Assembly: GCA_951406725.2 (NCBI GenBank)
Contig: OX597831.1
Span: 62,186,001 to 62,250,000, forward strand
Reading direction: 5' to 3'
DNA from: Octopus vulgaris
Taxonomy: Eukaryota
DNA: 64,000 nt
This document shows positions 1 through 43,138 of the stretch, one piece after another; the first letter of the stretch is position 1; each line of letters begins with the position of its first letter. Made by a program: the position numbers and the translations under genes. Below the pieces are notes generated by a model that saw only the letters and a list, made by a program, of their open reading frames with translations, did no database searches and was not told where the DNA came from.

Positions 1-240
1 TGAGTAAGTATCTCATTTATTTCTTTGAAACATTTATCACTGATGTAGGGAGGGTTCTTACGAACTAACCCTGAAATCGGTCCGATATGGTAATAATGGA
101 ATTTTTTAGAAATTTGTGTCGGCTTTTTTTCGTGTAGCGTGCGTATTGGGAAAAATTATATGATTATGGATAATATGTCCAATTTTCGCCGTATTTGGCA
201 TTAGAGATTTTTTCGTTTGCCCTTATTTATAAGTTGTATA
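1..240 (+). mobile_element. Hammerhead-bearing non-coding repeat, family F1 (partial; same family as 9270-9712)
   Basis: 31-236 aligns with 9531-9712; hammerhead-like motif TATCA-CTGATGT-AGGG..CCCT-GAAA-TCG-GTC-CGATA at 35-87 (A9 mutated). Confidence 0.7.
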
Positions 241-1369
241 TATAAACATATAAACACCTATAAAAGCTCACAGCTCTTCGACCAGTAACTAATTTGATAG
301 ATACCAACGCATGAAACTATCGAACCTTGGATCACTCTGTTACTTGTGGTAAATATTAATAGAAATATGCAATAATAATTTACAATGACACACTTTTTGT
401 TCAATCTTTTTTTATTTCACCACACACACACATATATATATATATATATATATATATATATATATATATATATATATATATATATATATATATATATATA
501 TATATATATATATATATATAATATATATATATAGGAGCACAGACGCAAATACATCTCTCTCTCTCCCTCTCGCTCTCCCTCCATCTCTCTCTCTCTCTCT
601 CTATATATATATATATAAACATAATTAGCTTATTCACATGAACATTAGGTTAATAAAAATATGCTTATGCATATACTAACTTTCTGACAAAAACTGAGAA
701 AGGCTAAAGCACTAAAGATGTCTCCTTGGGAATCCGTTAGCGGAATGCACTGGTCAGATATTGCAAATATTACCGCAATAAAGAATTTATAACTACGGTA
801 ATTGTAGTGCATTAACGTTAAGAGGTTAGAATAGGTCACAGACTTATTTTAACTCACCTAAACCTCATTTAATCTTCATCAGTGCTTGTCGCATATGTGT
901 GTGCGTATGAGTGTGTGTGTGTGTGTTTGTGTGAGTGTGTGTGTACTTGTACGTGTGCGTGTATGGATATTTGTCTATACATGTTTTCAAATAATTTATT
1001 CGAAAAATTTTTTTGTGGGGACATTTTATCCGAGTGGGAACCAGTTTTGCGCTATTATCGATTGATAATTCAGGTTAACGTTTCTGTGCTTATGTACTAA
1101 TGTTTGTCGTTAATTACTTTGATCATTCTTAGTACTTTTCACTTCCGAAAATCCAATTCTCCCTACAAAGACTTCATTTTTTCGATATAGGAAAAATAAT
1201 TAATTCTTCAAGGAAAACAGAGTATACACATAGATATTCACTTTTTAATTATTGTGCAGTCAATGTGACTACACAATGATTAAAAAGTGAATATCTATGT
1301 GTATTCTCTGTTTTCTTTAAACTATCATATATATATATATATATATATATATATATATATATATATATA

Positions 1370-2645
1370 CTAGCAGAGATACCCAGCGTTGCCCGGTTAC
1401 ATTCAATAGAAGAATTAGACTTTTCTGTTATATATATATATATGGATACACACACATACACACACACACAAATATATGTATGTTAATATAAATACATGAA
1501 AGTACATGAAGTTTGTTAAAAAAGGGGATCATGTATATACCTCCTGGCTGTTGAGATTATAACACCTCGTTGTAATCAATGTTCCTTGTTTTTCCTTGTG
1601 GAGCATATACAAAAAGGTTTCTTTTGGTTCCTACTCTTGAGCAGCCAACATACAGTTGCCTATGCGAGAAGCAGGGATCTTCAGAGAAGACCAGCTACAG
1701 AGAGGGTTTGGCCCTGAGATTTGTTAATGGACATGGCAAAGCTGACACGAAGGAGGAATTGCAGTCTTCTGAATGTAAAGGGAATTTCTGCTCCTGATGG
1801 AGTAAGAGGAAATCTTGGAATAAAGACGTCATCACCTTTTCCACATCCAGAAGAATGATCGCCTCGATAACGTGTAATATCATTTTCTTTATCACCAGTC
1901 GTGCTACATTGCAAAGTCTTGGTGGTTCCAGATTGCGGAGTAGCATTACAGGAGTTCCAACTTTAAGTGGTAATATGTGTGGAGGTAGTCGAGGAGGGCT
2001 CCAGTGAATTGAGAAATTCAGGAGGATAGTTCACAACTTCATTTATATCTGGAATTGTATCAACAGACTTGTAAGTGTGTATAGTGCCGGGAAGAGAATG
2101 CATTAGCAGTTGATTAATTTTGTTATCAGCGACGTTTTTTGGAGCTAATATTGCTCTTTCACACCGCCAATTGTGATTTTGGTAGTTTTGTGTGAAGTTG
2201 GGAAAGACTTTGTTTTTGAGGTCATCTACAGAATTAACAACAGAAGAAAATGACCACACTTCCATTTGTTCTGCAGCATCGAGAGGCAACTTGCCATCAC
2301 CAAATGTCAAAATGTCCTGTGCAAACTTTGTCTACATTTTGTCGCCGTGTAGCTGAGCTCTCATGTTAGTGGTGAGACTAAAGATTGTAACATGATGCCA
2401 CAGGGTAGAGGACTTTAGGCATGCTTGAACTTCATCAGCTCTAGTGCCTTTCGGAATGACAGGAAGAGTTGCCTGAAATCACCTGACAACAGAAGCGTTA
2501 CACCTCCCATTGGAGCCTGACTGTCTCGGATGTCTTTCAGGGCTCTATCTAATGCTTCCAAAGCTCCCTTGTGAGCCATAGTGCACTCATCCCAGACAAT
2601 TACATAACACATTTTAAGTACTTGTTCCTGATCTGAAGAGACATT
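1370..2645 (-). mobile_element. Helitron 3' part with disrupted PIF1-family helicase
   Basis: Frameshifted ORF pieces with Helitron helicase motifs (VIVWDECTMAHK, LLLSGDFRQ, ERAILAPKN, MLLRNL..RLCN, RLQF..VSFAMSINKSQGQTL); minus-strand 3' end CCGGGCAACGCTGGG hairpin followed by CTAG at 1370-1373 next to (TA)n. Confidence 0.9.
1579..2640 (-). pseudogene. PIF1-like DNA helicase pseudogene of Helitron RepHel
   Basis: ORFs 2415-2612, 1963-2310, 1695-1946 and 1681-1914 are consecutive frameshifted parts of the helicase C-terminus. Confidence 0.9.
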
Positions 2646-2649
2646 TCTT

Positions 2650-2840
2650 ATAGTAGGAGAAATAGCTAAATTCTTTGGCTGCTATTTCTAAAGATTCGGT
2701 GTGTGGTAAAGTAAATTTTTTTTGCTGAACCCTAATTATATAAAGTAATGTTTAAATATACCGTAAATGGTCCTTTTACGTATTGAACACTGCTTGGCAA
2801 AATTATTAATTACTAATTAATTAATTTTACCCTTATTATT
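2650..2840. mobile_element. Fragment of terminal module shared with hammerhead elements F7 and F9
   Basis: Similar to 38501-38697, 39069-39260 and 32262-32445 (AGAAATAGC..GCTATTTCT hairpin, ends TTAATTTTACCCT before a microsatellite). Confidence 0.7.
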
Positions 2841-2974
2841 ATATATACACACACACACACACACACACATATATATATATATATATACATACATACATAC
2901 ACACACACACACACACACACACACATATATATATATATATATATATATATATATATATATATATATATATATAT

Positions 2975-40939: not shown

Positions 40940-41202
40940 CGCAAGATGGGAGAAGTACGAAACGTGGTCCTTTGTTATTCGTAAGACCCGCAGAAGAGAG
41001 AGCAGGTCAACCCCCGACACCGAGAGCAAGAAACAGGAAGAAAGAGTGAGAGAAAGTTGGGGCGAAAGAGTACAACAGGGGTCGCCACTACCCCCTGCCG
41101 GAGCCTCGTATTGAGCCTCGCTCAATACACACACAAGGGAATCGAAGCCGCGATCCTCCGACCGCGAGTCCGCTGCCCTAACCACTGGGCCATTGCGCCT
41201 CC
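40940..41202 (-). mobile_element. SINE family A variant
   Basis: Head and body match 15180-15374; 3' part differs. Confidence 0.8.
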
Positions 41203-41539
41203 TTTGCTATTGCTGTTCTTGTTATGATCTTATTGTCACACTATATTCGCCGCAATATGCCAAACATGATATCACAGAAAATATTTTGGTGACCATTGCG
41301 TCGTTTATCGAGGCATAATATATATACTGTGATATTACTAAACACCCCCTTTCCTACCTGCTACTGAAGGGGCGGTATTATATGAAGATCTTGTGTTATT
41401 TCTTGTCATTTGTGTGGTAGATGTTGATGAAGTGAAACGACGGAACACAGTTGTTACCCTCGCAATAATTTTGTGCTACACCATCTATTGCAAGAATAGT
41501 ACAGTTGATCCTTTACAAGCTATCAAAACCTAAACAATT

Positions 41540-41761
41540 TTCTTCTTCTTCTTCTTCTTCTTCTTCTTCTTCTTCTTCTTCTTCTTCTTCTTCTTCTTCT
41601 TCTTCTTCTTCTTCATCTTCTTCTTCTTCTTCTTCTTCTTCTTCTTCTTCTTCCTCTTCTTCTTCTTCCTCTTCTTCTTCTTCCTCTTCTTCTTCTTCTT
41701 CTTCTTCTTCTTCTTCTTCTTCTTCTTCTTCTTCTTCTTCTTCTTCTTCTTCTTCTTCTTC
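41540..41761. repeat. (CTT)n microsatellite
   Basis: Direct inspection. Confidence 0.95.
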
Positions 41762-42357
41762 TCCTCTACCACCATCATTATTATCACGAACATCGACTGC
41801 AAAGTTATCTTCATATGAATATAAATCCAAATGACCAAAATTAATATGAAAATCACCATTTATTCGCTTTAGACGGGATCTAAATGCCATTTAGACAGTA
41901 TCTACGTGTCTGCTCCATACAGCTAACTCAAAAATCTAAAGGACTCAAAAATCCTCCTCCAATTATAAGAGAAGTTGGTCACGACTATAGCATGCAAAAT
42001 AATCGGTTTTTACTGTTCAGGTCAAAGCAGGTGTTAAAGTCTCATTCGAACACTATCACCAATATCTTCAGCGTCAAAGGCAACTCCTGTCTTGGCGTCA
42101 TCAATTTGTACTCTTATACTTTTGACTATTTTTTCTCATGATAGGCGTAGGAGTGGCTGTGTAGTAAGTAACTTGCTTACGAACCACATGGTTCCGGGTA
42201 CAATCGCACTGCGTGGCACCTTGGGCAAGTGTCTTCTAGTATAGCCTCGGGCCAACCAAAGTCTTGTGAGTGGATTTGGTACATGGAAACTGAAAGAAGC
42301 CTATCGTATATATATATATATATATATATATATATATATATATATATATGTATGTAT

Positions 42358-43138
42358 ATGAAAATAGTAATGCAATACGAGAGTATTGCTTTCCAGTAAA
42401 GAATAGCCCGTGAGGGTAAAATTATACATAAAAGTAAATAAATGGTACAACGAAGCACCGGTATTTACTGGAAAATAGCGAACGTAATAAATACGACGCT
42501 AATGTATAGCTTCACTGCGCATGTACTAGCTTTTTCATTTTTCAGATGTTCTTCCTAGAGGTAAGACAATTTTTTTCATGTTTGTTGCACACACGCATCT
42601 TTACTAGTACATACACAATGAAGCTATACATTAGCGTCGTATTTATTACGTTCGCTATTTTCCAGTAAATACCGGCACTTCGTTGTACCATTTATTTACT
42701 TTTATGTATAATTTTACCCTCACGGGCTATTCTTTACTGGAAGGCAATACTCTCGTATTGCATTACTATTTTCATTGAAACTGTTTCACTGTTCTCGCTC
42801 TCTTAACGTGTTAGCGTTCAGACGAGTGTACTGGCATAGATGTGGCAACATTTGAAATATTGTTGAGGTTTATGCAGCTGATGAGGATAAATCAAATATA
42901 CTTTTGGCATTCGTATTTTGAAAAATCCGAAACCGGTACTGCATTATCCGTTATCTAGGTTTTTCATTTTTCAGATGTTTTTCCTAGAGGTAAGACAATT
43001 TTTTTCATGTTTGTTGCACACACGCATCTTTACTAGTACATATGCAGTGAAGCTATACATTAGCGTCATATTTATTACGTTCGCTATTTTCCAGTAAATA
43101 CCGGAGCTTCGTTGTACCATTTATTTACTTTTATGTAT
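42358..43138 (+). mobile_element. Partial tandem plus inverted element with intact hammerhead, family F10
   Basis: Inverted arms 42358-42529 / 42604-42775; direct repeat 42526-42710 / 42955-43138 (period 429); no ORF. Confidence 0.88.
42872..42944 (+). ncRNA. Canonical minimal type I hammerhead ribozyme
   Basis: ATGCAG-CTGATGA-GGAT(..TCAAATATAC..GTATTTTGA..)ATCC-GAAA-CCG-GTA-CTGCAT: 6-bp stem I, intact core, stem II GGAT/ATCC, ACCGGT palindrome, GUA cleavage triplet at 42936-42938. Confidence 0.88.

What the first reader, a model, noticed from the sequence alone, without database searches (positions are those of the whole stretch)
35..43138. About ten mostly unrelated non-coding elements share one design: partial tandem or fold-back structure, a minimal hammerhead ribozyme and (TA)n insertion sites
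Seen: hammerhead-type motifs at 35-87(+), 3105-3142(-), 3365-3409(-), 4320-4365(-), 7790-7835(-), 8222-8267(+), 9536-9589(+), 20068-20104(+), 22746-22806(-), 28466-28526(-), 31668-31719(-), 32659-32710(+), 35660-35708(-, partial), 38902-38978(+) and 42872-42944(+). Stem I differs between families but pairs (ATGCAG/CTGCAT, GACAC/GTGTT, CCAC/GTGG, TGAG/CTCA, TCTTT/AAAGA, GTACG/CGTGC). The host elements have no ORF and have repeat periods of 357, 429, 546 and 568 bp. Established: minimal type I hammerheads occur in Penelope-like elements and in non-coding retrozymes, and Penelope elements leave partial tandem and inverted copies. Inference: this genome holds a large multi-family radiation of non-autonomous ribozyme retroelements that may make short monomeric or circular RNAs copied in trans by a Penelope-type RT. 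I do not know of a description of this diversity in cephalopods.
Basis: partly seen in the sequence, partly recalled or inferred. Interest (0 to 1): 0.9.

Follow-up and report, generated by a model that had tools for sequence, protein, structure and literature searches.

The report
Penelope retrotransposons and their ribozyme parasites
The ten hammerhead-bearing repeats in this window are not one kind of element: four are the cut-off ends of protein-coding Penelope retrotransposons, five are short non-coding units that Penelope enzymes likely copy from predicted circular RNAs, and one has a tRNA-like head like a SINE, so this is mostly a known system seen in a new animal group.

Summary
All 15 motifs are at the stated places. 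They fall into ten families, each with at least 900-3,400 candidate sites in the genome. The hammerhead call holds per family, not per copy: 1 of 15 window copies passes a strict descriptor, but fetched DNA gives 105 hits against 0-2 in shuffles, with compensatory changes in helix III.

The "no ORF, non-autonomous" reading fails for B, D, F and H, which are 5'-truncated ends of coding Penelope-like elements (PLEs). A, C, G, I and J are true non-coding units of 357-580 bp. They fold strongly as circles and carry PLE footprints: two fixed 3' ends and fold-backs. G inserts as arrays of up to 7 or more units, with both fold-back arms sharing one haplotype. E is a tRNA-headed, SINE-like monomer with a hammerhead tail. 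C and E do not target (TA)n.

Minimal PLE hammerheads, animal retrozymes and hammerhead SINEs are published; my searches found no cephalopod description. Cleavage and circular RNA are untested. This scan noted ribozyme-free, tRNA-bearing PLE-type units in two other genomes.

The parts
15..243 (+). Family A, 3' part of a non-coding unit of about 477 bp; hammerhead 35-87, core mutated in this copy
9348..9710 (+). Family A fold-back copy; hammerhead 9536-9589
2976..3180 (-). Family B, 5'-truncated 3' end of a coding PLE (linker CX4CxxC); hammerhead-like motif 3105-3142 with A6U; 25 of 25 fetched copies identical over the motif
20048..20185 (+). Older B-related fragment; motif 20068-20104 decayed
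3199..3924 (-). Family C, 357-bp non-coding unit: 1.55 units plus an inverted 0.5 unit with tail; hammerhead 3365-3409, family core U3-A8; predicted cut 3371/3370
3944..4550 (-). Family D, fold-back 3' end of a coding Hydra-type PLE with a long simple-repeat 3' UTR; hammerhead 4320-4365, G8A in this copy
7729..8353 (+). Family E fold-back: inverted arm 7729-7887, tRNA-like head about 8090-8159, short (AAT)n, hammerhead 8222-8267, tail ending 8353; inverted hammerhead 7790-7835
22704..22952 (-). Family F, fold-back 3' end of a coding Hydra-type PLE; motif 22746-22806 with U4C
28430..28693 (-). Family F copy; motif 28466-28526
31469..32999 (.). Family G fold-back: 1.37 units on - and 1.46 units on + of a 546-bp non-coding unit, in (TA)n; hammerheads 31668-31719(-) and 32659-32710(+); predicted cut 32706/32707
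35538..36163 (-). Family H, fold-back 3' end of a coding PLE; motif 35664-35708(-) (A9C plus an extra base; this copy also has lost G12 and has G17)
38501..39272 (+). Family I, 1.35 units of a 568-594-bp non-coding unit related to G; hammerhead 38902-38980, core mutated in this copy; predicted cut 38975/38976
42358..43139 (+). Family J, 1.43 units of a 429-bp non-coding unit plus an inverted 0.4 unit with a 65-nt tail; hammerhead 42872-42944, the only window copy passing the strict descriptor; predicted cut 42938/42939

Best explanation
The window holds a community of Penelope-like elements: four families are truncated ends of elements that code for reverse transcriptase and/or endonuclease, and six are non-coding families that likely borrow those enzymes. 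SHOWN: B, D, F and H run 5' into GIY-YIG endonuclease frames (B and H also into RT frames). A, C, G, I and J are head-to-tail units of 357-580 bp with no ORF over 73 codons. All five have two fixed 3' ends 48-110 nt apart, scattered 5' ends and fold-backs, as the coding families do. E is a monomer of tRNA-like head, (AAT)n and hammerhead module. INFERRED: a transcript of a more-than-unit copy folds two minimal hammerheads into the dimeric form through the self-complementary helix III, is cut to unit length and is ligated to a circle. A PLE protein nicks (TA)n (or AT-rich DNA for C and E), starts reverse transcription at a fixed internal site 160-300 nt downstream of the cut, and runs round the template, giving 1.x units or, in G, arrays. 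Priming from both target strands gives the fold-back. E is likely transcribed by Pol III as a linear monomer whose lone minimal hammerhead would cut poorly, and is copied through its PLE-like 3' end. Odds: mobilised by PLE enzymes about 0.9; template at least more-than-unit about 0.95; circle made by hammerhead cleavage about 0.5.
For: Coding link: H 8 of 25 and B 4 of 25 loci have PLE protein matches upstream on the sense strand. L326 has an 825-codon stop-free frame with RT and GIY-YIG motifs between two H ends. L327 matches Pfam RVT_1 at E 8.6e-8. F endonuclease lies 232-289 nt upstream of the F module in L266 and L312, both arms of each. D endonuclease lies upstream in 3 of 30 loci, with a 331-codon frame carrying CxCX5C, CxxC and CxH. 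Units: period seen in A 5 of 25, C 16 of 30, J 21 of 30, I 11 of 25 and G 30 of 30 (overlapping) loci; fixed 3' phases. G: 24 of 31 insertions have 2 or more units in an arm, and 11 have more than one unit on both arms. Substitutions within arrays average 0.81 (130 pairs) against 7.3 between arrays (2,873 pairs); opposite arms differ by 0-2 in 16 pairs from 4 insertions, while two separate neighbours differ by 8. Circular folding z against 14 dinucleotide shuffles: J -10.2, G -7.1, C -6.0, I -5.6, A -4.8; coding ends and E -0.8 to +2.7. Compensatory helix III changes: D has two paired forms in 26 and 18 of 48 copies with 1 intermediate; C in 18 and 5 of 27 with 2 intermediates. C core is U3-A8 in 26 of 30. 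E: 25 of 30 heads have the module downstream, 15 of 25 modules have a head; target duplication of 8 nt or more in 8 of 13, null 4%.
Against: No cleavage or circular RNA was shown. No coding element sharing its 3' end with A, C, E, G, I or J was found among the loci fetched. 5' ends do not pile up at the predicted cut, apart from 5 of about 45 J ends at phase 16-22 (noticed after the fact). The youngest families have the least canonical ribozymes: B, F, G and H pass the strict descriptor in 0 of 25-30 copies, and A6 changes give low activity (PMC3088659). One G insertion is present twice with the same junction but 6.2 and 4.2 units, so arrays can change length after insertion or in assembly. 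J, C, A and I never reach 2 units (0 of 110 loci), which a freely rolling template does not readily explain. One of 8 random genomic windows also folded at z -9.7. Published tests are sobering: minimal PLE hammerheads cut weakly (PMC4209133) and 1 of 9 Xenopus dimers cut (10.64898/2026.07.22.740005).
Confidence: 0.72

Rival explanations
1. The short units are copied by PLE enzymes from long linear read-through transcripts of existing tandem copies; the hammerhead is an inherited passenger that seldom cuts, and no circle is needed.
For: Copies routinely span the predicted cut site. G, the family with long arrays, lacks the first pair of stem II. B, F and H spread with core substitutions. Naiad PLEs spread without canonical hammerheads (PMC8557442). 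Uniform arrays would also arise from a uniform source array.
Against: Compensatory changes in helix III and at 3-8 imply selection on the ribozyme fold. Only the short units fold strongly as circles. A 1.x-unit copy of J or C cannot give rise to longer copies from a linear transcript, so the lineage would run down.
Confidence: 0.35
2. All ten families are truncated pLTRs of coding PLEs, and the tandems arose later by local unequal crossover.
For: True for B, D, F and H. It is the scenario discussed in 10.64898/2026.07.22.740005. A duplicated G insertion differs in unit number.
Against: The same short period recurs at independent loci. None of the 140 A, C, G, I and J loci runs into its own ORF; the two J matches are other families' endonucleases. 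Both fold-back arms are multimeric in 11 of 31 G insertions. E has a fixed tRNA-like 5' end.
Confidence: 0.07
3. E is an ordinary LINE-mobilised tRNA SINE, perhaps one of the three octopus SINEs described in 1994, whose hammerhead-like motif is incidental.
For: tRNA-like head with A and B boxes, monomeric, target duplications. Octopus genomes are rich in tRNA SINEs (PMC8967140, PMC13282606).
Against: E ends in a unique tail, not a simple repeat; it has two 3' ends about 31 nt apart and frequent fold-backs, the PLE signature of PMC8557442. The motif passes the strict descriptor in 10 of 25 copies.
Confidence: 0.15

Closest known systems
Minimal hammerheads (min-HHR) of metazoan PLEs, Cervera and de la Pena 2014 (PMC4209133; parts 1-2 of 4 read)
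   Same: Many sequence families per genome, short helix I, extra base between 9 and 10.1 (E, B), palindromic helix III, U3-A8 variant (C), opposite-strand pairs 100-700 bp apart, mostly on truncated copies.
   Different: That paper ties the motifs to truncated coding PLEs; here half the families are self-contained short units. The parts read name no cephalopod.
EN+ PLE clades Hydra and Neptune/Nematis, Craig et al. 2021 (PMC8557442; passages and sections 6 and 11 read)
   Same: Partial tandem, inverted 5'-truncated copy, tail at one end, (TA)n targets. D and F endonucleases show Hydra motifs (CxCX5C in D, frameshifted in the F copy read; CxxC; CxH). B and H have CX4CxxC linkers and a second cysteine pair.
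   Different: Tails here reach 48-110 nt against 30-40 bp. Clades rest on motifs, not on a tree.
Animal non-LTR retrozymes, Cervera and de la Pena 2020 (PMC7229834; passages and sections 14 and 17 read) and Li, Clavereau and Pollet 2026 (10.64898/2026.07.22.740005; parts 1-3 of 5 read)
   Same: Non-coding tandem units with a type I hammerhead, under 45% GC, self-paired as predicted circles, proposed to be mobilised by PLEs; already known from a mollusc (mussel).
   Different: Units of 357-580 bp are at or above the usual 170-400 nt. Most J, C, A and I copies hold one hammerhead only and would fail Li et al.'s two-hammerhead criterion. Here the PLE link rests on insertion footprints, which the parts read do not report.
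SM-alpha / Sj-alpha SINE-like elements of schistosomes (known from passages of the review PMC6765202 only)
   Same: Pol III-type promoter followed by a hammerhead, as in E.
   Different: Those occur as tandems cut from multimers. E showed no unit period in 25 of 25 loci and has PLE-type fold-backs and tail.
MRC1 and other non-autonomous Chlamys elements (passage in PMC8557442)
   Same: Non-autonomous PLE derivatives with pLTRs and multicopy head-to-tail insertions.
   Different: Green algal, and most Chlamys lack hammerheads; they share 3' ends with known partners, which were not found here.

Membership tests
Coding EN+ PLE (families B, D, F, H) | C-terminal GIY-YIG endonuclease upstream of the hammerhead-bearing end, same strand | tested here: met
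   Pfam GIY-YIG only weak for B (E 0.0017, under cut-off)
Coding EN+ PLE (families B, D, F, H) | PLE-type RT in the same element | tested here: inconclusive
   Met for B and H; no RT reached for D and F
Coding EN+ PLE (families B, D, F, H) | 5' truncation, inverted copy, tail, (TA)n target | tested here: met
   a second 3' end with tail was not seen for B
Coding EN+ PLE (families B, D, F, H) | Clade by RT phylogeny; presence in Repbase or Dfam | not testable with these tools
   No reference set or repeat library on hand
Non-LTR retrozyme (families A, C, G, I, J) | Non-coding head-to-tail unit of a few hundred bp | tested here: met
   longest ATG ORF 36-73 codons
Non-LTR retrozyme (families A, C, G, I, J) | Type I hammerhead in the unit | tested here: met
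   Strict in C, I, J; one helix-base mismatch in A and G, repaired in minority copies
Non-LTR retrozyme (families A, C, G, I, J) | Copies with two or more complete units | tested here: inconclusive
   G 24 of 31 insertions; A, C, I, J 0 of 110 loci, though a few span two cut sites
Non-LTR retrozyme (families A, C, G, I, J) | Highly self-paired as a circle | tested here: met
   z -4.8 to -10.2; prediction only
Non-LTR retrozyme (families A, C, G, I, J) | Self-cleavage and circular RNA in vivo | not testable with these tools
   Needs bench work or raw RNA reads
tRNA-derived SINE (family E) | 5' head with A and B boxes at tRNA spacing and a fixed start | tested here: met
   Boxes 45 nt apart, start conserved; box consensus and numbering recalled
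tRNA-derived SINE (family E) | Head recognised as tRNA by standard tools | tested here: not met
   ARAGORN 0 of 12 loci; Rfam no tRNA match in 2 of 2. Stems are decayed; the tRNA origin rests on invariant positions
tRNA-derived SINE (family E) | 3' end shared with a partner element | tested here: inconclusive
   No partner among fetched loci
Minimal type I hammerhead | Core C3-U4-G5-A6-N7-G8-A9 / G12-A13-A14 or U3-A8, with stems I and II and NUH | tested here: inconclusive
   Core met in A, C, D, E, G, I, J; not met in B (A6U), F (U4C), H (A9C)

The most novel reading that the evidence does not exclude
Family G is a young retrozyme whose arrays are written in one step by a Penelope RT rolling round a self-cleaved circular RNA from both target strands, which would be direct genomic evidence for the proposed retrozyme cycle; and family E is a Pol III SINE that parasitises Penelope rather than a LINE, using a captured hammerhead-bearing 3' end.
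Probability: 0.4. Interest if true: 0.65.

Novelty: new member of a known kind. Interest (0 to 1): 0.42.

Why it matters
How animal retrozymes move is proposed, not shown, and what the PLE hammerhead does is still open. This genome offers young, near-identical coding PLEs (B, H) beside young non-coding units (G) with exact 3' ends, so cleavage, circle formation and trans-mobilisation can be tested with defined sequences. The footprints argue that G arrays are born as arrays. E widens the range of PLE parasites to SINE-like elements. For annotation, such elements lie at about one per 20 kb in scattered samples (10 clusters in 200 kb), so a share of octopus 'unknown' or 'SINE' repeats may be PLE-dependent.

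Tried and rejected
Rfam on the window: no hammerhead among 150 of 158 matches shown, nearly all microRNA models on (TA)n. F first looked like a MITE because my query was itself a fold-back; rejected once its endonuclease was found. The RT frame next to F in L180/L333 belongs to another PLE. A G-like end 563 nt behind an endonuclease in L275 is a separate fold-back inserted in that element's (TA)n tract, not a partner. A shared TTTTACCC motif near the ends of G, I and J was noted but not tested. Pile-up of 5' ends at the cut site: weak in J, absent in C and G.

Sequencing runs for G: no RNA holder listed; all were contigs. On four laid runs the head-to-tail joint was present in all, including one large run of unknown kind, so it says nothing about circles. 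One contig starts at the predicted cut (32707), but position 17 is polymorphic in G (A or T), which explains a graph branch there.

The J and C counts were faulty and are replaced. The head-linkage parts failed and are replaced. One search found no Pfam family for the D frame (reading frame of that reference not checked). Lunse et al. 2016 (title: PLE hammerhead variants cleave as dimers) was not held; it may already cover the B, F and H core variants. No supplements were read; those of PMC8557442, PMC4209133 and PMC13282606 may list some of these families.

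
Full report
SETTING. The window is G000:C18:62186001-62250000 in a 2.8-Gb genome. 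They belong to ten families, lettered A-J. First-look candidates per family, which are lower bounds: J 1,981, G 1,289, C 3,425, A 2,143, I 2,806, H 1,584, F 1,432, B 1,172, D 903, E 2,114. Each search scored only its best 40 candidates and I took 25-30 loci of each, so the samples favour copies like the window's. Profile scans found 17 clusters of these families in the 64-kb window, 19 in 200 kb of neighbouring DNA and 10 in 200 kb from 20 scattered places. The window is therefore richer than average.

ARE THEY HAMMERHEADS? Per copy, mostly not: 1 of 15 passes a strict descriptor and Rfam shows none among 150 of 158 listed matches. Per family, mostly yes. The descriptor gives 105 hits in 1.51 Mb of fetched DNA against 0, 1 and 2 in shuffles. 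Helix III is self-complementary in 104 of 121 hits when this is not demanded. It changes in compensatory pairs within D (26 and 18 of 48, 1 intermediate) and C (18 and 5 of 27, 2 intermediates) (overlapping loci may be counted twice). C has the U3-A8 core in 26 of 30, and N7 is the most variable core position in A, E and I. Against this, B, F and H carry fixed core substitutions (A6U, U4C, A9C), and G and A each have a mismatch at a helix base, repaired in minority copies. A6 changes lower activity (PMC3088659, passages). Activity is untested.

FOUR FAMILIES ARE ENDS OF CODING ELEMENTS. H: 8 of 25 loci have PLE protein matches upstream on the sense strand. L326 has an inverted H end, an 825-codon stop-free frame (its first 45 or so codons are read-through of the inverted end) with RT and GIY-YIG motifs, and a direct H end. 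B: 4 of 25 loci; L327 matches RVT_1 at E 8.6e-8 and L328 matches GIY-YIG weakly. F: none of the 25 loci of its own search, whose query was a fold-back, but an endonuclease lies 232-289 nt upstream of F in L266 and L312. D: a long simple-repeat 3' UTR, with an endonuclease upstream in 3 of 30 loci. D and F show the Hydra-clade motifs given in PMC8557442 section 11; B and H have the CX4CxxC linker of section 6.

FIVE FAMILIES ARE SHORT NON-CODING UNITS. A (about 477), C (357), J (429), G (546) and I (568-594) repeat head to tail at independent loci and have no ATG ORF over 73 codons. None of their 140 loci runs into its own ORF; two J matches are F and B endonucleases. Counting from the predicted cut, each has two sharp 3' ends: J 201/266, C 172/220, G 198/296, A 159/250, I 191/290-300. 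The 5' ends are scattered. Fold-backs occur in 11-17 of 25-30 loci per family. This is the PLE footprint described in PMC8557442 section 6. (TA)n flanks J, G, A and I but not C, which has duplications of 8 nt or more in 12 of 30, some of them TA runs, against a null of 6%. All five fold far better than shuffles as circles, and the B, F and H ends and E do not (J, C and G as consensus, A and I as natural copies; 14 shuffles each; 1 of 8 random windows also scored -9.7).

G ARRAYS. Of 31 insertions read, 24 have two or more units in an arm and 11 have more than one unit on both arms. The longest fully read holds 7.0 plus 1.7 units; one of 12.7 units has ends I could not resolve. Units differ by 0.81 substitutions within arrays and 7.3 between; opposite arms differ by 0-2 (16 pairs, 4 insertions), while two separate neighbours differ by 8. 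Both arms were thus copied from one haplotype, most simply one molecule read round more than once. A uniform linear multimer would give the same picture. Two of the 31 are one duplicated insertion with 6.2 and 4.2 units, so length can change later or in assembly. A, C, I and J never reach two units (0 of 110 loci).

E IS DIFFERENT. It is a tRNA-like head, an (AAT)n tract and a 190-nt module with a canonical minimal hammerhead. Searching from the head, 25 of 30 loci have the module downstream and 3 more have it on the inverted arm; from the module, 15 of 25 have a head. A and B boxes lie 45 nt apart, the tRNA spacing (recalled), but ARAGORN (0 of 12) and Rfam (0 of 2) do not recognise it. E shows no unit period (0 of 25), avoids (TA)n (3 of 25) and has target duplications in 8 of 13, one of them a TA run. 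It has fold-backs and a tail of about 31 nt. No partner was found.

MECHANISM. Shown: anatomy, ends, targets, periods, coding links. Inferred: dimeric cleavage through helix III, ligation to a circle, target-primed reverse transcription by a PLE protein from a fixed internal site, and priming from both strands. One locus (L334) has 1.5 J units inside an insertion bounded by two F ends, joined at a 5-nt microhomology. It suggests, from one case, that an F-type RT can switch onto J RNA. The main rival is copying from uncut linear multimers with the ribozyme as a passenger.

WHAT IS KNOWN. Multi-family minimal hammerheads with palindromic helix III, U3-A8 and opposite-strand pairs: PMC4209133 (parts 1-2 of 4). 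PLE insertion structure and (TA)n targets: PMC8557442 (passages, sections 6 and 11). Animal retrozymes with circular RNAs, including mussel, and PLEs as likely mobilisers: PMC7229834 (passages, sections 14 and 17). Retrozymes as non-autonomous PLE derivatives in 35 species, none a mollusc: 10.64898/2026.07.22.740005 (parts 1-3 of 5). Promoter-plus-hammerhead SINEs in schistosomes: PMC6765202 (passages). For cephalopods: the giant squid paper counts 235 Rfam hammerhead hits (PMC6962438, passages); the Octopus vulgaris repeat paper lists 31 recently active PLE families and has no 'ribozyme' in its main text (PMC13282606, passages); PMC8967140 (passages) has none either. Searches for hammerhead with Octopus, with cephalopod, Penelope with Octopus, SINE and cephalopod, and SINE with Penelope and tRNA or Pol III gave no description of these families or of a PLE-dependent tRNA SINE. 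The library lacks most subscription papers, and Repbase and Dfam could not be checked. Ohshima and Okada 1994 and Lunse et al. 2016 were seen only as titles in reference lists. Two unchecked notes of this scan describe tRNA-bearing, ribozyme-free PLE-type units in other genomes.

VERDICT. Real and above chance, but a mixture: known PLE debris, new members of the retrozyme kind, and one SINE-like variant. Interest 0.42, carried by the G footprints and by E.

Noticed in passing
L334:4840-7471 (G000:C16:11249840-11252471): An insertion bounded by two F 3' ends contains endonuclease pieces in both directions and 1.5 J units, joined to F at a 5-nt microhomology; a likely template switch between a coding PLE RNA and a short unit.
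   Followed up: partly
   Followed up: no
L313, L307, L310: Variants alternate or recur among units within some G arrays (units 1 and 3 alike in L313), which could mean a dimer template or sequencing noise.
   Followed up: no
L256, L258, L335, L346: 3' parts of a LINE with a restriction-like endonuclease sit in the (AAT)n linker of E; Dong-R4-like by recalled motif and target.
   Followed up: no
window 2823-2832, 32971-32980, 39241-39250, 42710-42719: G, I, J and a G/I-like fragment share AATTTTACCC near a 3' end although J is otherwise unrelated; a possible RT recognition signal.
   Followed up: no
   Followed up: partly
window 20515-21753 and 55629-56329: Two more old fold-back structures, 69-84% alike between arms, not assigned to any family.
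   Followed up: no
window 1684-2620 (-): Broken frames that resemble a PIF1-type helicase of a Helitron, by recalled motifs.
   Followed up: no
window 25437-27961, 48397-49197, 58345-59100: Decayed LINE RT/endonuclease pieces and a mariner-like transposase piece, by recalled motifs.
   Followed up: no
window 37197-38158: A 13-bp minisatellite of 75 copies that supplies many false CTGATGA cores.
   Followed up: no
L343, L344: An E head and (AAT)n followed by an F-like module instead of the E module, in a duplicated region.
   Followed up: no
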